From assembly GCF_009834535.1 (NCBI RefSeq), contig NC_045696.1, forward strand, positions 34,102,001-34,166,000: 64,000 nucleotides of DNA, written 5' to 3'. The first letter of the stretch is position 1; each line of letters begins with the position of its first letter. Source of the DNA: Camelus ferus (Eukaryota). Of this stretch, positions 5,758 through 56,040 are shown piece after piece. The notes below the pieces were generated by a model. It was not told the origin of the DNA. It ran no database searches and saw only the letters and a list, made by a program, of their open reading frames with translations. The translations under genes were made by a program, and so were the position numbers.

Positions 5758-5850
5758 GGGTAGGGGTGGGTATAGCTCAGTTGGAGAGTGTGTGATTAGC
5801 ATGCACAAGGTCCTGGGTTCAATCCCTAGTACTTTCATTTTAAAAAAAAT
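5758..5850 (+). mobile_element. tRNA-Ala-derived SINE (camelid vic-1-like)
   Basis: A box tatagctcagttgg, B box ggttcaatccc, A-rich tail; 14-bp TSD ttaaaaattaattt at 5744-5757 and 5851-5864. Confidence 0.9.
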
Positions 5851-12559: not shown

Positions 12560-12720
12560 GTTTTTTGTTTGTTTGGTTTTTTTGGGGGGGAGGGTTCTTG
12601 GGGGAGGTAGTAATTAGATTTTTTTATTTTAATTTTTTTTAATGGAAGTACTGGGGATTGAACCCAGGACCTTGTGCATGCTAAGCATGCATTCTCCAAC
12701 TGAACTATACCCTACCCCCC
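12560..12720 (-). mobile_element. tRNA-Ala-derived SINE (vic-1-like, long-tail variant)
   Basis: Antisense of gggtatagttcagttggagaatgcatgcttagcatgcacaaggtcctgggttcaatccccagtac. Confidence 0.9.
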
Positions 12721-15960: not shown

Positions 15961-18320
15961 GCGTTTAATACTATACCATCATAATGAATCAAGCTGATGC
16001 ATTACTTTCAGTGGATTAACAGCTCTGAAACTTTCCACAGAAGAGGCAAACAAAGAACATGTCTTTCCTTACTCTTCCACTTTCCCTCCCTTCTCTCTAT
16101 AGGAAATCTGGACCATATTAACTCAAAGTGATATTATTTCCAGAAGAGGTCTTTAGGGGAGACGTATCTAGCAATTCAAATGCACTTAACTTAAACCTAC
16201 AGCTTTTTACATCAAACTTTTCTCAGTGAACATGTGAAACTTATCTCTATCATTCACAAATTTAAACCATATATACCCTAAGGCACCTTGAAATCCCTCT
16301 GCCTTCAACACTGAAAGATGCTTTTACACTGTTGCTTTTCTGTCATTAATCTACCTAGAGCTGTGATAATGCTCAACACATATTAAAGTTTTCATGATGA
16401 ATTTTGATACCATGCATCAAATTAAATGTTGGAAGAAGCTATTTTTCTCCATAATGTTCTCCCATTGTGCTTGGTTATTTTAATTTATTTAGAGATAAAT
16501 TTATTAACCTGTCTTGGAAGAAACTGCGTAGTTCCTTTAGTGGCAAATCATTCCCTGGTGCAAGTACTCCTGGAAGAGTTCCTTCAGCAGCAATGAGGTT
16601 ATTAATAACTTCTTATGATACCATCTCATAGTCATGGTAACCATCTGATGGTGCCACCCCTGGGGCCTGAAGATTATTACAGGGTCATAAATCCCCAGTT
16701 GCTTCAATAACAAAGGTTAACTCTAGGAATTAGTTTATCACTCACCTGTCAGCTGTTGTGGAATGCTCACTTCCGTGTTTCAGATTCTGATAGACATAAA
16801 AATCTGCTGGCAACCTTTCTCTCTTCATTTATTCTTTGGTAAAGACTTGACATTTTTGCATTGGATTAATATGTCACTCTTCTCACTAATATTTTAATGT
16901 GTATTTTATTAAGTTTTTATGAACTTTCATTTCCAAGGTTATTAGAGATGCTGTAAGCACTGTAAAATGTGAGTTCCAGCTAGAGAAAATATTGTTTTAG
17001 TTTCATCTTTCAGTGAAACTTATATGGATTCTAAAAGCCCATATTAGCTTTACCAAGACTGAAAGGTCTTCACACTTCTCCATGTCAGGAAAGTGACGAT
17101 TAATTGACACATCTCTTGTTTATAGTTCAGTACATGTCAAAGTTTCTGAATTTATCTATGAATCATATGCAAATCTGGAAGGCAAAAGACTGTCTTTACT
17201 TTGGGAATCTCCAAGGACATCACATTATCAAGCACAAATAATACCAGTTTAAAGTATTTGGCCATTTTATCAGCTCTCCAGACAAATATAAATACCCACT
17301 GGTGCTGACAATTTTACTAACAGTGATTAAGCCCTTGGATCATTTATTTTCCAAGGATGCCCTTTCATACACTTGACTTATGAAGGTTAGAGAGCAAATT
17401 GAATCTTACTTCATAATGAGTGTATGTTTAATCAGATATTATACGCTGTTAATTTAGGATATTAACTAGTCATGCTCTTTGAGACTAAAAAAGGGGGCTA
17501 GAAAGAGAAGACTGAAGATTCTGCATTCACAATTCTCCTACATGTAAATATTGCACCAAACTAGCTTTTATCTTGGTCACATTTTCTCCCTCATGTGTCA
17601 TAAAAAATATCTTCCTTTAAACAATGTATCTGTTTTAATAGTTTTCAAAGTTCAGTGCAGTCTGTCGGGTAAGAATGGCCTGAAAGTCTGAGAACTGCAA
17701 ATGGTGGCAGGAGGAGTAAGTTGCCAGTTCCCTGGTCAAGCATGAGCCTGTTCTCTTCATTACACAGGTAAGATTTATGCAGGCATGTTAGGCCCGGGCC
17801 TACATTCTCTGAGTTGGTACAGTGCATCAATATTAGCCTTCCTAAGGCACATTCTGTGATATACAGCAGTATGTTGCACCAAGGTAAATATGGTATTAAC
17901 TACAGAACACAGCACATGCAAACTTGGCAAGTTCAAATTCACCTTGCCTATCTTTGAGAAGAAACGCTTTCTATTATTAGCCATTTCAAAGATATTGATC
18001 TGTGCTCCATGCAGTAGCAAGTGTCTGAGGATATTAGTATGGTACCTTAGATTCAGTCTCATTAATTTTTGCCCGAGGAGAGTGAACAGAGAAGAAAAAA
18101 AGGAAACCGAAGGGGAAAGCTCAAAAGAACAGCAAAAACCAATGTATGGACAGACTGCAGAGATTTTGATTAAACTAAGGTAGTTGGGGGTATAGTGAAG
18201 AGATGATCTTGTACAACAAGGTAGAGAGAAAACTATTAGGAGACAGACTACAAATTCAGTCCCCGTAATCTAGACGGGAAAAGACCATTTTTGCCACGAG
18301 AACCTCCAACCTTACCAATC

Positions 18321-19860: not shown

Positions 19861-20610
19861 TTCTTCTTGGTGGGGCAGTTGTTGTTTTGTTTTGATTCGT
19901 TTTTTAATCTCTGTCACAGTCTTGGCTTCACATTTACCCATAAAATCATCCCATGGGAACCTGTCTCTTACTGAAGCTTATGGTAAAGGGTTTGGGTTTT
20001 AGGCTAAATACAATAGGATTCATCAAAGAGTTTTTTCTTTAAAATAAAACTTATTTAAGTAAATATATTAGCTTTATAACTAGAGTAAATTCAGTACTTA
20101 GCACACAGACAGAGCTTTTAAATTTCAAATGACTCCAAACGTGAGACTGATCATGTAACACCCTTCCTGCTGTTCTTATTATTAGGAAGTTGTTAAACCT
20201 CAACAATGAAATACTATCCCTACACTCTCATAAAATTAAAGAAAAGAAAACAATTTACTCATGAATTCACTTTTAAATAAACCACATTTATAAAACACTA
20301 TCCTGGGGATTATAATTTTGACTGTGCTCCCATTTGAGCAATTGTACAATCACTTAACTATAGCAGAAAATGAAATGAAAAATTCATATTCAGAAAGAAA
20401 GACCAAAATTCATCAGCTTGTGGATCAAGAAAAAGAAGTTGTTAAATAGCAACACCAAAAAAACTGTGCTTAAACCATCTAGAAACCAAATAAACTGGAA
20501 ACGAATCACTAATAAGATTTATCTTTATATAATGAGATTTATCTTTATATAATGCACACTTATGAAAAAAACTATTCTAAGAATTATAATCCTGTGATAT
20601 TTCCATTTTA

Positions 20611-20675
20611 TGCGATTATTTAAGTGCGACTTAAATAATTATTTAAGTTATTTAAGTCGCACTTAAATAATCGCA
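20611..20675. repeat. Perfect inverted repeat, 28-bp arms with 9-bp spacer
   Basis: tgcgattatttaagtgcgacttaaataa (20611-20638) is the exact reverse complement of 20648-20675. Confidence 0.97.
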
Positions 20676-21920
20676 AGAAAGCTAAAACAGAAAGCATTCT
20701 AAATTATTTTAAGAGAATAACAAAACAGATTTTTGCTGTGCATGTGGATTATTTTAATGCACGTTATCAACAAAAATGCTGGAAATACACAAAAAGCAAA
20801 TAGAACGAAGTAGAAGTAATTAAATCACATGCTTCACAATGAAATTATCTATAATGATAAAAATTATCCTACAAATTATAATTCTATCAATCTTCTGTTT
20901 GAGCAAATGACACTTTACTAATAGCAATAAAGTGAAAACAGGAAAAAAAATACGAAAAAGGAAACATCTTGCTATGGTTCTGGAAGCAGAATCATTAGGA
21001 TGGATGACACGGAGAGTGATTGACATCTGTTTGCAGACCATGTAGACACAAGTCCAAATTCAGTGCTTGGTAGAGCAATATTTCTTATTGCCAGTAAGGA
21101 TGTGATCAGCTGGGGAAGTCCCTTCATAGAGAGGTTTGCCTTTGCTTTCCAGAAGAGGCGGAAGGGCAGGGATCCTCTCAACAGGGACCCCTCTGTAACA
21201 AACAACCTCTAACTGGAGGATGATATTAAGCACCAGAGTTTGGGCCATTCTGGAGGGATAACTGAATTAAAAGAAGGTCCAAAGAATCTTCCAGTGCAAG
21301 GAGCATCCTTCAAGCTCTGTCCTGTGGAGGATATGATGCATTAGAATGGAGTTGGCCTGTTGGAAAGATTCTCCTCCTAGGGTCATGGTCCCCATTAGGT
21401 GGCATCTGTTTTATTCTGGGCACCAAAGCCTGGATGCCCCTGCCAGCCAGATTTCCCTCCTCCCTCAGGAATCCCTTCATCCAGAGGGTTCCTGGTGATC
21501 CCCTCAACCCTTCTGCCAATATCACTCTGAGAATGTCTGGGAGACACCTGGGACAGAAGAATACACATAGAAACATTCACATTTAAATTAAGAATTGTCT
21601 TATTTGGTTTTTATTCCCATTAAATTATCAAAGTTTCTCTTAACCATCAGCATTCTCAACCTGTTGTTTTGAGCTTCTCTCACAGGAATCAGGCTGGCAT
21701 TGATCATTTTCAGTGATTATTTTCAATTTTTCTGGGAAATTATTGACTTGTATTTTATAGGTGCCCAACTTTTCACATGCTTGGCTGATCTATTCAGTTG
21801 CTTTGGAAATGCTCTCCTCTTTTTTGTGATAATTTCTTCTAAATTTAATCTTTAGTAAAAATGTATTTCTTTTTCTCAATTCAGTTCCAGAAAGGACTGG
21901 GTTTTTTCTTAGAACTTTTG

Positions 21921-21940
21921 TCTTTCTTTCTGTCTGTCTG

Positions 21941-21980
<40 letters not shown>

Positions 21981-22068
21981 TCCTTTCTTGCTTTCTTGCT
22001 TTCTTGCTTTCTTTCTTTCTTGCTTGCTTGCTTCCTTCCTTCCTTCCTTCCTTGCTTGCTTGCTTTCT
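21921..22068. repeat. Compound microsatellite (TTTC)n/(CTTG)n/(CTTC)n
   Basis: Direct reading of tetranucleotide runs. Confidence 0.95.
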
Positions 22069-22183
22069 TCAGCAGTTTTCTCACTTTGGAGAATTTTAAT
22101 GTGATCTCAAAGTATATTGATTAAGCTTTCAGCTAATTTAGTACACATCCACTTTAATTTTCCTCTAAGAGTTCTTAAGCAAG

Positions 22184-22623
22184 TGTATTTGTTTCTTAGT
22201 GCAGCTACAACAAATTACCACAAACTTAGTGGCTTAAAACACAAGTTTATTACCTTGCAGTTCTGGACATCAGATGTCCAAAATCGGTTTAAGCTAAAAT
22301 CAGCGTATCTGTCAGCATATCTATCAGCAGGGCTGCGTTCTTTCTGGAGGCCCTCAGGGAGAATTCACTTATTTTTTCCAGCTTTTAGAGGCTGCCCACA
22401 TTCCTTGACTGTGGCCATGCTAACCTCTGATCCTGAACCTCCTGCCTCTCCTCTCATGATTACATTGTTCCTACCTGAATAATCCAGGATACTCTTCCTG
22501 TCTCATGTTCCTTAATTTAATCACATCTTCAAAATCATTTTTTATCATGAAAGGTAACATATTCATAGGTTCCAGGGACTAGGATGTAGACACCATTGGG
22601 GGACCATTATTCAGCCTCCTATA
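22184..22623 (-). mobile_element. MaLR solo LTR (MLT1C/D-like) inside the CTAGE5 pseudogene
   Basis: tgtatttgtttcttagtgcagctacaacaaattaccacaaacttagtggcttaaaac start; ggggaccattattcagcct end. Confidence 0.85.
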
Positions 22624-22986
22624 GTATTCACTCAGCCTCACTGAGTTGGTTTCTTTAAAGTGTCTCCTAAGAGGTGTTTCTGTTTTGATTCATTTGTCAT
22701 ATGTATTGGATTCCATGTTCTCACCATCCACCATGTCTTCTCCAAGAACAGCAAGTGTTCGCTCAGAGACCTTGTCTGGCCTTGTCCTTTAGAACTTGTT
22801 CCATACCACTTTAAGTTCACTCACTCTTCTTTTCCAACCTTTTGCTTCTTGTGAAAGCAGCTGTATCCTTCCCTAAAGACTGGAATTTCATCTAAAGTAT
22901 TTTTTCAGTGCTGTCTGAACTCTTCTTCATTCTTCTGATGTAGTTTGAAGACTGTTTTGGTTGCAGCTACTTGAAATGGGAAGTGT

Positions 22987-23368
22987 TTTGAAGCATCTTT
23001 TATTTTATTTTTAACATTTTTTTATTGAGTTATAGTCATTTTACAATGTTGTGTCAAATTCCAGTGTAGAGCACAATTTTTCAGTTATACATGAACATAC
23101 ATATATTCATTGTCACATTTTTTTCACTGTGAGCTACCACAAGATCTTGTATATATTTCCCTTGTGCTATACAGTATAATCTTGTTTACCTATTCTACAT
23201 TTTGAAATCCCAGTCTGTCCTTTCCCACCCCCCACCCCCTTGGCAACCACAAGTTTGTATTCTATGTCTATGAGTCTGTTTCTGTTTTGTATTTATGTTT
23301 GTTTGTTGTTGTTGTTTTTTAAGATTCCACATATGAGCGATCTCATATGGTATTTGAAGCATCTTTTA
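22987..23368 (-). mobile_element. Young L1 3' end inside the CTAGE5 pseudogene
   Basis: Nearly identical to 50670-51005; perfect 16-bp TSD tttgaagcatctttta at 22987-23002 and 23353-23368. Confidence 0.95.
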
Positions 23369-24393
23369 AAGAATGTATGTTTTCTGTTCCATTTACCATC
23401 AGCACAACTTGTTCTAATAATTTAAATTCCTTTCCTTTCAGTCCTTTGTCTAAAAGCCTCCATTTTAAGTCCAGGTAATGAGCTTTCCTGGTCTTCATCT
23501 ATTGCCTCCAGTGTTTTGTATTTTTGATAATGTCTTCTCAAGTCTGGCTTTCATTAACATTGATTCAAGGCCTCCAAATAATTTTGCATGCATCTAAGCA
23601 TCTTGAAGATAACTCTGTCCTTCTGTCCAAAGGGCAGAAACTCTGGTGCACTTTTTTGTCTCCAACTGTATAAAGTAAGGTTCTGATGATTAAAAATTCT
23701 ACATTCTACTGGAATTAAAACCACCACCATCTCCCATCTCCCATGGAGATCTGGGCCAGGTCTAAGGTCCACCATCAGCACTGCTACCACCTGATTCATT
23801 GTCTCCAGGAACAAAGTGACGAAGAACATCACAGCCATTGGCAGACCCTCAGTGGCCCCAGAGGCCTCAGCTGAGATTTTTCAGATTGCCTGACCCTGCT
23901 GGTTACCACAGGCTGCAGAGAACCCCATGGGCATTACTCCCTGAACCACACCCTGCCTTGACAACCAAGGCAGACCTCCATGGAGCTGGGCTATGAGAAT
24001 AACAAATCCAGTAGAAGAGAACCTCCTATCCTTCCTCACCTGGTGCCAGAAATAGAAATAGTATCTCATGGCCCCTGGGCATCCAGAGGCTAGAGACAGT
24101 AGCCAGGGCCCACCCAGCCCTGCTTGCTGCCTTCAAAGACTCAGATGATAAGTATCTTATACTGGTAACAAATTAGCGTCACTGGTTGAAAAGGTCCAAG
24201 GTAGAAGAATTGCTGGTTCCCAACCCTGATGAATGCTTTCCATCTTTTTTTGAATCCATTTTCTTTCTGTGACATGGGGCCTCATCCTACCCACAAAACT
24301 CACAGAAAACTTGCAGCTCTCCTTGATTTGTTTTTGGTCTACCTTAAATATGCATAAGAGGGGCACAGGATGGGAGGGGCCCTCCAAGATGTT

Positions 24394-50185: not shown

Positions 50186-50661
50186 CATGTAGTGAATGAG
50201 CTATCCTGTGATAAATTTGCATTAAAAACAAGGAGGATTCTGGGAAGGATTGGGAAGGATGCTATCTAGGGAAATGGAGAACACATTTCCACAAGTTGTA
50301 CACAAGAAAAATACTACCACCAACAACTATATAACAATAATTTGTAAACCTTTATTATATACCAGGCACAAGAATAATAAGTTTTATCTTCACTTATTGT
50401 GTACTTGGTATTAAATGATTTCTAAAGTGTATCCCAATAGGATCTTCACTACAATTCTGTCAGGTAGATCCCTACTGGAGATGAAGAGACAATTAGGACT
50501 AAAATCTGCCCACCATTTCTTCCTCTATTGAAGGAACTTCAATTCTCTAGATTTTCATTTTCATTTTGGAGTTCAAACAGGTCTACAAGGCTGAAGTAAG
50601 ATATGTAGATAACAGGATGGATCAAAATAATTTGAAGAAATAAAATGTGATATAAAATCTT

Positions 50662-51843
50662 TTCTTAACATTTTTTATTGATTTATAATCATTTTACAAT
50701 GTTGTGTCAAATTCCAGTGTAGAGCACAATTTTTCAGTTATACATGAACATATATATATTCATTGTCACATTTTTTTCTCTGTGAGCTACCATAAGATCT
50801 TGTATATATTTCCCTGTGCTATACAGTATAATCTTGTTTATCTATTCTACATTTTGAAATCCCAGTCTATCCCTTCCCACCCCCTGCCCCCTTGGCAACC
50901 ACAAGTTTGTATTCTATGTCTATGAGTCTGTTTCTGTTTTGTATTTATGTTTTGTTTGTTTGTTTGTTTGTTTTAGATTCCACATATGAGTGATCTCATA
51001 TGGTATTTTTCTTTCACTTTCTGGCTTACTTCACTTAGAATGACATTCTCCAGGAGCATCCATGTTGCTGCAAATGGCGTTATGTTATCAGTTTTTATGG
51101 CTGAATAGTATTCCATTGTATAAATATACCACTTCTTCTTTATCCAGTCATCTGTTGATGGACATTTAGGCTGTTTCCGTGTCTTGGCTATTGTAAATAC
51201 TGCTGCTATGAACACTGGGGTGCAGGTGTCATCCTGAAGTAGGGTTCCTTCTGGATATATGTCCAGGAGCAGGATTCCTGGGTCATATGGTAAGTCTATT
51301 CCTAGTCTTTTGAGGAATCTCCATACTGTTTTCCACAGTGGCTGTACCAAACTACATTCCCACCAGCAGTGTAAGAGGGTTCCCTTTTCTCCACAGCCTT
51401 TCTAGCATTTGTCATTTGTGGATTTTTGAATGATGACCATTCTGACTGGTGTGAGGTGATACCTCATTGTAGTTTTGATTTGCATTTCTCTGATAATTAT
51501 TGATATTGAGCATTTTTTCATGTGCCTATTGATCATTTGTATGTCTTCCTTGGAAATTGCTTGTTTAGGTCTTCTGCCCATTTTTGGATTGGGTTGTTTG
51601 TTTTTTTTCTTATTAAGTCATATGAGCTGCTTATATATTCTGGAGATCAAGCCTTTGTTGGTTTCATATGCAAAAATGTTCTCCCATTCCATAAGTTGTC
51701 TTTTTGTTTTACTTATGGTTTCCTTTGCTGTGCAGAAGCTTGTAAGTTTCATTAGGTCCCATTTGTTTATTCTTGCTTTTATTTCTATTGCTTGAGTAGA
51801 CTGTTCTAGGAGAACATTTTTGAGATGTATGTCAGATAATGTC
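50662..51843 (-). mobile_element. Young L1, 3' ~1.2 kb (ORF2 C-terminus plus 3' UTR); 3' part of a U6-L1 chimera
   Basis: ORF2 peptides KARINKWDLMKLTSFCTAKETI and [24 protein letters not shown]...KEKYHMRSLICGI. Confidence 0.95.
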
Positions 51844-51950
51844 AAAAGTATGGAATGCTTCACGAATTTGCGTGTCATTCTTGTGCAGGGGCCATGCTAA
51901 TCTTCTCTTTATTGTTCCAATTTTAGTATATGTGCTGCCGAAGTGAGCAC
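51844..51950 (-). pseudogene. RNU6: Full-length U6 snRNA retrocopy fused 5' of L1
   Basis: Reverse complement gtgctcacttcggcagcacatatactaaaattggaacaataaagagaagattagcatggcccctgcacaagaatgacacgcaaattcgtgaagcattccatactttt; about 7 differences from U6, ACAGAGA box mutated. Confidence 0.97.
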
Positions 51951-54319
51951 CATAAAATCTTAATATAGTTGAGAGGTTAAAAATCATTCTCCAGTAGAGG
52001 ATAAGTAAGAAAAGAAGTTTTGAAAAATTACTATAAACCTCACAAGTAAAATAAGAAATGTTTTTGATGAAGTCTCAAGAAATGATCATGTTTTTACATA
52101 AGGTAAGAGTTTATAAATTCTTGTTTTATTACAGTATGCTATTTTATGACAAGAATGGAACACTACACAAATATATACATATAACTTTTTAAAAACTTTG
52201 TAATCCAAGAGCTTTAATGCTATAATATTTAGACAAAGTTTTATTGTGGTTGGTAACTTTATGATACCGGCCACCATTGAAGTGGCTGATTAAACAAGAA
52301 GCACTACTAGCTAAAGACAGATTTCAGTGGAAGACTCCAGAACCAAAAGTATCCTTTGTTAGGGAAGAAAAATCCTTGTTTGATCTCCATTGGGCAGAGA
52401 GTCTTACAGAGGCCATCTGGCACTCCTCCTCAAAGTGGGAAAAGGCAGCTCTTCTCAGCTGGCTTCTGGTGAGCTTTTATCTTCTCTAATATAAAATCCA
52501 TGGTGTAGCCAGATGACAACGATATTTTTCTTAATATTTCAGTGCCATAAGAATGATATGCATATTTGCAAACTAGATCAGCTAATTGAATGACAGAAAG
52601 AAATTTTACAATCTGGAGACAACAAAGAAAAAGATACTATGAGCAGTGCAACACTATCAAGTGATGGTCACGATAATTAAATCACTTGTGCTGTGCTCAC
52701 CTTAAATGAGAGAATGCATAATCCTCTCTCCCAGCTCATATAACGTTGCATGGAACACTTAAGCCTGCTACAGATTGGTGGTAACACTGATCTCCTGTTG
52801 TGAGGAATAATTAAAGTTTATTAAATCACTCTAAAAGCTTATAAAAGCAAACACCAAAAGCTTGTATAGTAGGATTGTCAACCACAAAAAAAAAAAAAAA
52901 AAAAAGGCAGTTGCTGGGGTTGATTTAAAAGCTGCTGTAGCTAAATTAGAAGATTTATGATGGAAATTTTAGCTTCTTTCCTAGTCAGGATTATTTTATC
53001 ATGTAATTCCTTTAATCATTTTCAATTAATGCCTGAGTGTTGCCCCTCAAAGCAAATTTACTCTCATAAGTTAAGTCTTATTTAATGTGCACTAAACAGC
53101 TAAAAACTTGCCTAAGACTGTACCTTATGATACCGTAAAAGGATGTTACTGGCACTCCCAGAACTTTGTCAGAGTGCTTATGCTTACTGAAATGCCTTCT
53201 GGGACAGGGTCCTCCCTACCTAAAATTCTAAATAAATTTTGGGAAAGGCAATTACAGAGCACGATGGTGTGGGGTATTATATTCGGCTGGATCTGACAAT
53301 TGAGAATTCTTTGCTTGTTTAAGCGTTTTAAGAATCACTTGTTAAGAAAACTGATGTTAAGATTTAAAATCTGAGTTTATAGCTTTATGATAATTCCTAT
53401 TTAAGAAACTGATGCTAAAAAGTGCTAAATGCTTAGAAGAATTTTATCAAACAAAGTAGAAATGGGGCTTTGGAAATAAAAAAAGTGAGGATAGATAAGA
53501 AATATATATATAGATATTTTATATCCAATCCAATTTATACCTCTACTTGAAAATGATTCTAGACATGTCCATAATCCAGCAATCCTCTAATTCCTAGCTT
53601 TGCACTCATGCTCTGTAGCTTAATCTGAATTTCATACTTTTATTGAAAAAAATGTAATAGAATATTTAAATTTTGCACTTGAAAGAATAAAGAGCAAATA
53701 TGTTATTGAATAAAATCACAATAGTGTTGTGGAGGTAAAACTTAGAGAATTTTTCTAGAATTGAAAACAAAGAGAAGATCAGCATTAGAAGTGCTGTGAA
53801 AATACAATAAATATCCCTGATGAAACCATCAGAATTAATAGAATTATCTTCAAAGATTTAATATAAGCAAATACATTTAAGATGAAACAAGATCTGAGAC
53901 AAAAGGCTCAGAAAGGGGCTTCTGCCTCCAGAGAGTAAGTGAGGTAGAATGCAGCAGACACCAGCTCAGCTGAAAAGAACTCTGAAGCCAGTACGATACA
54001 ACTACCGTATACTTATGAGTACTGGAGAAAGGATGAGATGATGAGAACTAGTAGGGCTGATTCTAGAAATGAAATGACTTTTCGTATTGTTTTCTGTAGG
54101 CTATCTTCTAATTCTGGGGGCAACCAAGAGACTGAAAATGTGGGCTATTAAGAGGCATAGCACTTCCCCCAAAGAGAGAGAAACATGCAAAAGCGTAAGT
54201 AGTCTTGCAAAGCAGGAACTGAAGTTGAGACATCAGGGGCCTCATACTCATCAATGCACTTTCTAAATTCTGAAGCCTTATGAATAGGAAGCTAAAGAAG
54301 TAAATCAAAAACTTCTGAA

Positions 54320-54826
54320 TTTGTTTTCTATTGCTGCTAGAAGAAGCTACCACAAAGTTAGTGGCTTAAAATGGCATGAATGGATTATCTTACAGTTTTG
54401 GAGACCCAAAGTCGGCAGTGGGGTCTCACTGAGCCATAATTAAGGTGTCAGCTGGGCTGCTTACCTTTCTTAAGACTTTAGGGGAAAATCCATTTTTGTG
54501 CCTTCTCCACCTGCTAGAGGCTGTCTGCATTCCATGGCTTGTAGCCCCTTCCATCTTCAAACCCAGCAATGGCTGGTTGAGTTTTCTCAAGATGCTATCA
54601 CTCTGGTTCTGACTTTTTGCTTCCCTCTTCCCCAATTAAGGACCTTTATGATTATGTTGGGCCCACCTGGATAATTCAAGGTTCTTTTGTCTTCAGCTCA
54701 GCTGGTTAGCAACCTTAGTTCCATCTGACACCTTGACTCCTCTTTACCACATAACATACCATATTCTCAAGTTCTGGAGCTTAGGATGTAGACATCTTTG
54801 GGGAACCATTATTTTGTGTCCCATAA
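54320..54826 (-). mobile_element. MaLR solo LTR (MLT1D-like)
   Basis: ttttctattgctgct...accacaaagttagtggcttaaaa...ggatgtagacatctttggggaaccattatt. Confidence 0.85.
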
Positions 54827-55890: not shown

Positions 55891-56040
55891 GAGGGAAGAG
55901 GGTATAGCTCAGTGGTAGAGCACATGCCTCACATGCATGAGGTCCTGGGTTTGATCCCCAGCACCTCCATTAAAAATAAATACATAATAAGTAAATAAAC
56001 AATTACTTTCCCCACCCAAAAAAAGATTTTTTAAAAAATT
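55891..56040 (+). mobile_element. tRNA-Ala-derived SINE (vic-1-like)
   Basis: gggtatagctcagtggtagagcacatgcctcacatgcatgaggtcctgggtttgatccccagcacctcc plus A-rich tail. Confidence 0.9.

What the first reader, a model, noticed from the sequence alone, without database searches (positions are those of the whole stretch)
20740..23870. Ancient, nearly full-length CTAGE5 retrocopy hidden under three later insertions
Seen: after removing the L1 (22987-23368), the LTR (22184-22623) and the microsatellite (21921-22068), the minus strand gives a collinear intronless series covering the N-terminus, membrane region, coiled coils, proline-rich tail and 3' UTR. Known: cTAGE5 is the TANGO1-family ER-exit-site factor from the multi-exon MIA2 locus, and its retrocopies are best described in primates. 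Inference: an MLT1-class LTR inside it dates the copy to early eutherian evolution, well before the primate CTAGE expansion. It starts at the cTAGE5-type N-terminus (AEASGATE ~ MEEPGATP), with no MIA SH3 region seen. Its high divergence may reflect a period as a fast-evolving retrogene.
Basis: partly seen in the sequence, partly recalled or inferred. Interest (0 to 1): 0.75.

Follow-up and report, generated by a model that had tools for sequence, protein, structure and literature searches.

The report
Old dead cTAGE5-family gene copy
This is a real but long-dead, intron-less copy of the ER-export gene cTAGE5, and its likeness to broken copies in a rhinoceros and a ruminant suggests that it came from a fast-changing offshoot gene of early hoofed-mammal ancestors and not straight from cTAGE5.

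Summary
Confirmed and extended. The minus strand holds a wrecked, intron-less cTAGE5/MIA2-family copy. Four published human cTAGE5 snippets fall in order; the best matches 13 of 31 residues ungapped (E about 4e-4 for the window). They span 1,811 nt against 2,280 nt of coding sequence, so about a fifth is deleted. It is interrupted by a young L1 with a 15-bp target-site duplication, an old MaLR-type LTR and a microsatellite. These differ by 25-30%, an internal clock that agrees with the LTR. Three broken relatives (rhinoceros, a ruminant-type record, an unnamed record) sort into two lineages and are closer to this copy (74-81%) than human cTAGE5 is (about 64%). Best reading: a dead member of an old copy family born from a diverged, once-coding cTAGE5 offshoot. 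No parent sequence, syntenic genome or RNA data could be had, so dN/dS and orthology are untested. This scan noted other dead cTAGE5-like copies in camelid DNA before.

The parts
23830..23974 (-). 5' stretch upstream of the likely start codon, shared with the rhinoceros record P0005 (5' UTR of the source, or shared flank)
   Evidence: aligns to P0005 residues 122-168; true 5' end not found, no target-site duplication found
23353..23829 (-). coding remnant 1: hydrophobic N-terminus, decayed membrane region, start of coiled coil 1; frameshifted
   Evidence: siRNA-91 site at 23762 (14 of 25, rank 3)
23002..23352 (-). 5'-truncated young L1 3' end, same strand, flanked by a 15-bp target-site duplication (23353-23367 and 22987-23001)
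   Evidence: 331 of 347 identical to the L1 at 50662-51008; P0004, P0005 and P0029 align across the empty site
22624..23001 (-). coding remnant 2 (coiled coil 1 and linker), with a 30-40 nt shortening after the VSEL word shared with P0004 but not P0029
22184..22623 (-). old MaLR-type solo LTR (MLT1D by recall); no clear 5-bp target-site duplication left
   Evidence: 304 of 420 identical to a second copy at 54316-54825; flanks
22070..22183 (-). coding remnant 3
   Evidence: weak alignment of the P0029 C-terminus across the excised LTR (6 of 200 shuffles as good)
21921..22069 (.). AAAG/AAGC/AAGG compound microsatellite grown inside the purine-rich coiled-coil codons
   Evidence: 37 copies, period 4
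21736..21920 (-). coiled coil 2 remnant (TANGO1-binding region of the parent)
   Evidence: 13 of 31 to published cTAGE5 peptide P5 at 21828-21736, 8 of 30 to TANGO1 peptide P2 at 21914-21825
20970..21735 (-). C-terminal and proline-rich remnant, with large deletions
   Evidence: siRNA-1825 site at 21363 (15 of 25) and C-terminal peptide site at 20986
20751..20986 (-). 3' unit 1: last codons, stop and first part of the 3' UTR
20425..20750 (-). 3' unit 2 (tandem duplicate), holding a perfect 28-bp inverted repeat at 20611-20675
20031..20424 (-). 3' unit 3 plus the rest of the 3' UTR, ending in AAATAA and a short A-rich tail (20031-20040)
   Evidence: unit 3 against units 1 and 2: 173 of 247 and 157 of 221, 0 of 300 shuffles each; that unit 3 continues as cTAGE5 3' UTR is recalled, not tested

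Best explanation
A processed pseudogene of the cTAGE5/MIA2 family with no present protein function, made in steps. (1, inferred) cTAGE5 mRNA was retrocopied early in placental history, and the copy kept its frame while its protein changed fast: a retrogene. (2, inferred) That diverged source gave rise to at least two daughter loci before even- and odd-toed ungulates split: lineage A (this window and record P0004) and lineage B (rhinoceros P0005 and ruminant-type P0029). Whether by a second retrotransposition or by DNA duplication is open, and this locus may itself be the old retrogene. (3, shown or dated here) At about 0.15-0.19 substitutions per site ago, the stop-plus-3'UTR unit tripled and a MaLR LTR landed in the coding region; the copy has decayed since. 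(4, shown) Much later a young L1 inserted with a 15-bp duplication, and a microsatellite expanded. The dead, old, intron-less part of this I hold at about 0.95; the once-coding intermediate at about 0.55.
For: Family and collinearity. Dead. Relatives align collinearly to the repeat-excised DNA far above shuffles: P0005 191 bits, 269 of 365 fixed codon positions, shuffle maximum 31 of 20 shuffles; P0004 117 bits, 112 of 139; P0029 102 bits, 175 of 234. P0005 is named as black rhinoceros. Two lineages: the window and P0004 share the short path after VSEL (50 nt from QEA to EQVL in the window, 29 codons in P0029), while rhinoceros and P0029 share an ungapped block (38 of 42, 0 of 1,000 shuffles) that the window lacks at that place (23 of 42, 947 of 1,000). 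Rhinoceros and P0029 also read the same RCFRWKF stretch (29 of 41 identical). Shared stem: distance from the window to the lineage-B records is 0.31-0.32, to human cTAGE5 snippets 0.50 (0.33-0.72, counts for P5 made by hand); independent copies of the parent should be further from each other than from the parent. Frame kept on the stem: 170 aligned codons of the rhinoceros model are open, with one compensated shift and three junctions; 5 breaks are expected from the rhinoceros branch alone and 11-16 with a neutral stem (branch length and stop rate are my assumptions). Clock: 3' units 0.31-0.38 apart, LTR pair 0.34. MaLR families other than MST, THE1, MLT1A1 and MLT1C2 are widespread in eutherians and absent from opossum (PMC10735291, passage).
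Against: No cTAGE5 parent sequence was retrieved, so the distance to the parent rests on 102 positions from published snippets, chosen because they could be recognised; its interval (0.33-0.72) touches the distance to lineage B (0.26-0.40). Which frame of the rhinoceros model equals the parent's frame, and the polarity of the deletions, rest on my recall of cTAGE5. The rhinoceros model is a gene prediction, so it is enriched for open frames and its junctions may hide several breaks. No intact relative turned up: 0 among the 26 hits, 2 of 1,734 candidates (both broken or the query), 0 of 2,113, 1 of 548 (a query row); these searches also missed cTAGE5 itself, so they are weak either way. The species of P0004 is unknown. 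That P0029 lacks the LTR is only weakly shown (17.5 bits excised, 6 of 200 shuffles; 17.4 bits with the LTR kept, 56 of 200). No target-site duplication marks the ends of the copy.
Confidence: 0.55

Rival explanations
1. A direct, dead-on-arrival retrocopy of cTAGE5 mRNA made very early on the eutherian stem. It decayed neutrally for a long time and was then duplicated as DNA, giving lineages A and B.
For: A total distance of 0.4-0.5 from human cTAGE5 is about what neutral decay since the early eutherian stem would give (branch lengths recalled). No intact relative was found. It needs no selection.
Against: A long neutral stem should have left many shared frame breaks; the rhinoceros copy shows too few (P of 5 or fewer is 0.03 to 0.002 under my assumed rates).
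Confidence: 0.27
2. One locus only: the window, P0004, P0005 and P0029 are all orthologues of a single pseudogene, and the LTR entered later, in the camel line or just before it.
For: All four align over the same region, and the rhinoceros record also shares the 145 nt upstream of the start. Identities of 74-81% are near what neutral orthologues of these orders could show (recalled rates). P0029 seems to cross the LTR site without the LTR (weak).
Against: The shared indel patterns group rhinoceros with ruminant and the window with P0004, against the accepted species tree (recalled). The LTR is as diverged as the 3' units. No CCDC93 remnant, which the rhinoceros model carries, is in the window.
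Confidence: 0.12
3. The parent is TANGO1/MIA3 (short isoform) and not cTAGE5.
For: TANGO1 peptide P2 matches at 8 of 30 next to the P5 site; the two genes share their domain order (PMC3128532, passage).
Against: The cTAGE5 peptide matches better (13 of 31); a cTAGE5 siRNA and the cTAGE5 C-terminal peptide fall at the expected places.
Confidence: 0.03
4. The locus still does something: a short N-terminal membrane peptide, or a non-coding RNA driven from upstream or from the LTR.
For: A 91-codon open frame from the ATG at 23829 with a hydrophobic start.
Against: The frame leaves the family's register after about 45 codons. The protein-language-model search gave no named hit and a recognition score typical of non-proteins. 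CpG is fully eroded upstream.
Confidence: 0.03

Closest known systems
cTAGE5 (MIA2 locus; 804 aa; PMC3128532 and PMC4862334, passages read)
   Same: Same order of hydrophobic N-terminus, coiled coils, proline-rich tail and C-terminus; four published snippets match in order; no SH3 part seen.
   Different: No introns, about 20% deleted, 26-44 stops per frame, three insertions, tripled 3' end; only about 64% identical at the 102 positions that could be compared.
Primate CTAGE retrogene family (described second-hand in PMC4949931, and PMC2394760; passages read; the original study was not held)
   Same: Intron-less cTAGE5 derivatives; one retroposition followed by further copies, with fast evolution.
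   Different: That family is reported to start in the Haplorhini ancestor and includes intact genes. This copy is in a non-primate, is dead, and appears older and independent.
Rhinoceros record KAF5914025.1 (P0005), ruminant-type ENA records P0029-P0035, Logan record P0004
   Same: Collinear, 74-81% at fixed codon positions; all broken or partial; none named as cTAGE5.
   Different: They lack the L1. P0005 and P0029 carry a block the window lacks. P0005 is a gene model fused to a CCDC93 fragment.
Other dead cTAGE5-like copies noted by this scan in camelid DNA (e1-7852267, e1-625976, e1-7801848, e1-7855976, e1-7801668; unchecked AI notes)
   Same: Diverged, intron-less cTAGE5/MIA2 offshoots outside primates.
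   Different: Look-ups by sequence found no look-alike window, so they are not close copies of this one; some are described as short, whereas this one spans start to tail.

Membership tests
cTAGE5/MIA2 (TANGO1 family) derivative | Significant sequence match to cTAGE5 coiled coil 2 | tested here: met
   13 of 31 to published peptide P5, E about 4e-4 for the window (match counted by eye)
cTAGE5/MIA2 (TANGO1 family) derivative | Domain order N-terminal anchor, coiled coils, proline-rich region, C-terminus | tested here: met
   four published anchors in order on one strand; one further oligo had no site in place
cTAGE5/MIA2 (TANGO1 family) derivative | Full-length alignment and reciprocal best hit to MIA2 rather than MIA3 | not testable with these tools
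   no parent sequence retrieved
Processed pseudogene | Introns absent | tested here: met
   1,811 nt between anchors that are 2,280 nt apart in the coding sequence; individual exon junctions not checked
Processed pseudogene | Reading frame disabled | tested here: met
   26, 32 and 44 stops; longest open stretch 91 codons
Processed pseudogene | Poly(A) tail at the 3' end | tested here: inconclusive
   short A-rich run at 20031-20040 after AAATAA, in AT-rich DNA
Processed pseudogene | Target-site duplication around the whole copy | tested here: inconclusive
   only A-rich 8-10-mers matched between the tail flank and 23880-25500; 5' end undefined; loss is expected at this age
Primate CTAGE retrogene family | Descent from the Haplorhini retroposition | tested here: not met
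   relatives in rhinoceros and a ruminant-type record; internal clock older
Once-functional retrogene lineage | Frame kept and selection on the stem branch (dN/dS, shared indels in frame) | tested here: inconclusive
   break count in the rhinoceros model favours frame retention, but uses assumed rates and a recalled parent frame; dN/dS not computable
MLT1 (ERVL-MaLR) solo LTR | Match to an MLT1 consensus | not testable with these tools
   no repeat library; the name is recalled. It is an interspersed repeat with old sister copies in the window
MLT1 (ERVL-MaLR) solo LTR | 5-bp target-site duplication | tested here: inconclusive
   the flanks agree at 2 of 5; the excised site is 5 nt longer than P0029 in a weak alignment
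L1 insertion | Target-site duplication, A tail, TT/AAAA site | tested here: met
   15-bp duplication, A-rich tail, TTT before AAAA; 95% to another L1 end

The most novel reading that the evidence does not exclude
Long before the primate CTAGE expansion, early placental (at least laurasiatherian) mammals had their own fast-evolving, protein-coding cTAGE5 retrogene with a rewritten N-terminus, which spawned several copies. This locus and its sister in rhinoceros and ruminants are fossils of that earlier expansion, and a living member may survive unrecognised among 'MIA2-like' gene models. cTAGE5 would then have seeded fast-evolving retrogene families twice, independently.
Probability: 0.45. Interest if true: 0.55.

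Novelty: new member of a known kind. Interest (0 to 1): 0.33.

Why it matters
The locus itself is genomic debris with a well-layered history, useful as a dated fossil. It matters more as a witness: if the shared stem really kept its frame, cTAGE5 retrogenes are not a primate invention but a repeated outcome, which would point to recurring selection on variants of the ER-exit machinery (testis expression is the obvious guess, untested). Three searches of the paper library (CTAGE with retrocopy and primate, 1 paper; CTAGE with retrogene, 3 papers; CTAGE with pseudogene, cattle and duplication, 1 paper) showed no description of non-primate copies in the listings or in the passages read. The library lacks the main CTAGE evolution paper and its supplements, which may list such copies.

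Tried and rejected
Own-genome search: no genome held, so no synteny or copy count. Pfam on 7 local ORFs, on 150 of 192 window ORFs (one sub-threshold hit) and on 5 proteins: no cTAGE family; only CCDC93_N in P0005. Solved-structure sequence searches: no cTAGE5 or TANGO1 chain. Search of 1.84 billion representatives: 26 hits, 24 on the L1-derived part of the query by their coordinates (2 of these read), 2 on the cTAGE-like part. Word-based homologue searches did not reach cTAGE5. DNA pattern scans: 8 metagenome loci with no blastn match to the region, 4 genome loci with microbial titles, not compared further, 0 viral; read as chance. Protein atlas: no hit at 0.9 or more, no cTAGE cluster. A first block test ran off the end of the implied DNA (37 of 66, 825 of 1,000 shuffles) and was redone on the part that fits. 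I first took the RCFRW-type frameshift as shared by all copies (which would make the ancestor dead), but P0004 reads that stretch without it, so I dropped the argument. The rhinoceros C-terminus could not be placed across the LTR site (91 of 200 shuffles). Papers searched for printed sequence with nothing useful: PMC6464245 supplements (0 of 2 files), PMC8524724, PMC5716288, PMC5007089; peptide-word searches.
Full report
What was asked. No whole genome is held for this window. Earlier notes of this scan call the genome a camel and place KCNE1, DSCAM and CCT8 21-30 Mb upstream (unchecked).

Family. No tool returned a cTAGE5 sequence, so I tested the identity with sequence printed in papers. The 31-residue cTAGE5 coiled-coil peptide P5 (PMC11043333, passages) matches the translation at 21828-21736 at 13 positions without gaps (by eye). 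The expected number of such matches in all six frames of the window is 4e-4. The TANGO1 peptide P2 matches directly upstream at 8 of 30, not significant alone. [quoted passage not shown] The four anchors are in order on one strand and span 1,811 nt after excision, against 2,280 nt in the coding sequence. So there are no introns and about a fifth is deleted. The three frames hold 26, 32 and 44 stops.

Insertions. The L1 end is 23002-23352, between 15-bp duplications and at a TTT/AAAA site, 331 of 347 identical to another L1 end in the window: young. The LTR at 22184-22623 is 304 of 420 identical to a copy at 54316-54825 and has no clear target-site duplication. I recall it as MLT1D but could not test that. 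MaLR families of this group are widespread in eutherians and absent from opossum (PMC10735291, passage). The microsatellite is 21921-22069.

Missed parts. The copy continues below 20740. Three tandem units of about 240-390 nt follow the coding end: unit 1 against 3, 173 of 247, and 2 against 3, 157 of 221 (0 of 300 shuffles each); 1 against 2, 132 of 177 (6 of 300). The C-terminal peptide hits the starts of units 1 and 2 alike, so the repeated unit begins in the last codons. The last unit ends in AAATAA and a short A run at 20031-20040. Corrected distances between units are 0.31-0.38, the same as for the LTR pair (0.34), or 0.15-0.19 per copy. By recalled mammalian branch lengths that is about the age of the placental radiation. 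These figures come from gapped alignments of AT-rich DNA and are rough. No target-site duplication of the whole copy was found.

Relatives. A search of 1.84 billion representatives gave 26 hits, 2 of them on the cTAGE-like part: P0005, a black rhinoceros gene model fused to a CCDC93 fragment, and P0004, an unnamed record. P0005 then found P0029 (2 of 1,734 candidates), whose seven cluster members include frameshifted alleles; its N-terminus looks like a ruminant SINE (recalled). Back-translated, they align collinearly to the excised window at 191, 117 and 102 bits, with shuffle maxima of 31, 24 and 29, and at 74%, 81% and 75% of fixed codon positions. All cross the L1 site empty. P0005 also aligns 145 nt upstream of the ATG at 23829.

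Two lineages. The window and P0004 share a short path after the VSEL word that P0029 does not have. Rhinoceros and P0029 share an ungapped block (38 of 42; 0 of 1,000 shuffles) that is absent from the same place in the window (23 of 42; 947 of 1,000), and the same RCFRWKF stretch. Camels and ruminants are closer to each other than to rhinoceros (established), so this pattern fits two paralogous loci older than that split better than one locus. The species of P0004 is unknown; at 81% it is too distant to be a camelid (inference). Whether P0029 lacks the LTR is only weakly shown.

Source. The window is 0.31-0.32 from lineage B but 0.50 (0.33-0.72) from the human snippets (65 of 102 positions, the P5 part counted by hand). 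Independent copies of a slowly changing parent should be further from each other than from the parent, so A and B share a stem. In the rhinoceros model 170 aligned codons are open, with one compensated shift and three junctions. With an indel rate taken and assumed branch lengths, about 5 breaks are expected from the rhinoceros branch alone and 11-16 if the stem was neutral. This favours a stem that kept its frame, that is, a fast-changing retrogene. Against it: gene models select open frames, junctions may hide breaks, the parent's frame is recalled, the intervals overlap, and no intact relative was found. Notes e1-7852267 and e1-625976 report intron-less cTAGE5 offshoots still open in other mammals. 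They led me to run this test, but I could not check them or link them to this copy (searches found no look-alike).

Expression. Untested. Seventeen of 24 listed runs hold the DNA; three RNA or possible RNA runs hold small shares, and no read lay was obtained.

Comparison with what is known. It works like any processed pseudogene and meets the tests for intron loss and disablement; tail and target-site duplication are inconclusive. It is not a member of the primate CTAGE family, which is reported to begin in the Haplorhini ancestor (PMC4949931, passage; PMC2394760, passages; the original study was not held, and its supplements may bear on novelty). PMC5753468 and PMC3836709 (passages) gave only the MaLR listing and DUX4 context; PMC4862334 (passages) gave the MIA2/cTAGE5 exon relation.

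Verdict. Observation confirmed with wider limits; interpretation partly supported. A new member of a known kind, interest 0.33. The bolder reading, an earlier non-primate cTAGE5 retrogene expansion, has a probability of about 0.45 and would deserve about 0.55.

Noticed in passing
window 50660-51950, minus strand: U6/L1 chimera: a full-length U6 (Rfam 107 bits, 51844-51950) fused directly to a 5'-truncated L1 3' end, with a 10-bp duplication AAGATTTTAT on both sides. A known kind of insertion.
   Followed up: partly
window 20611-20675: Perfect 28-bp inverted repeat with a 9-nt spacer inside 3' unit 2 (DNA fold -30 kcal/mol, z -12.8). Perfect arms in old DNA suggest a recent template-switch inversion.
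   Followed up: partly
window 17775-18269, minus strand: Longest non-L1 open frame of the window (164 codons) with a gene-like look, next to an L1 end. Only weak hits: ankyrin-like word (E 0.04) and DAD family (E 0.06). Unexplained; perhaps another old retrocopy.
   Followed up: partly
window 5766-5837, 12643-12712, 55898-55969: Three tRNA-like matches in Rfam, probably heads of tRNA-derived SINEs (inferred).
   Followed up: no
window 22513-22523, minus strand: TGATTAAATTA inside the LTR fits the DUX4/DUXC binding word as I recall it; the LTR lies in the same sense as the pseudogene.
   Followed up: no
window 23990-24450, minus strand: Upstream of the copy: a CCAAT-like and a TATA-like word and a 49-nt GT...AG stretch, seen by eye; could be remains of a promoter and leader, or chance.
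   Followed up: no
P0005 (KAF5914025.1): The rhinoceros 'hypothetical protein' is a gene model that joins a CCDC93 fragment to a cTAGE5-family pseudogene; probably an annotation artefact.
   Followed up: partly
P0029-P0035: ENA proteins that appear to be host pseudogene DNA translated with TGA read as W; two frames agree on one DNA sequence only under that reading.
   Followed up: partly
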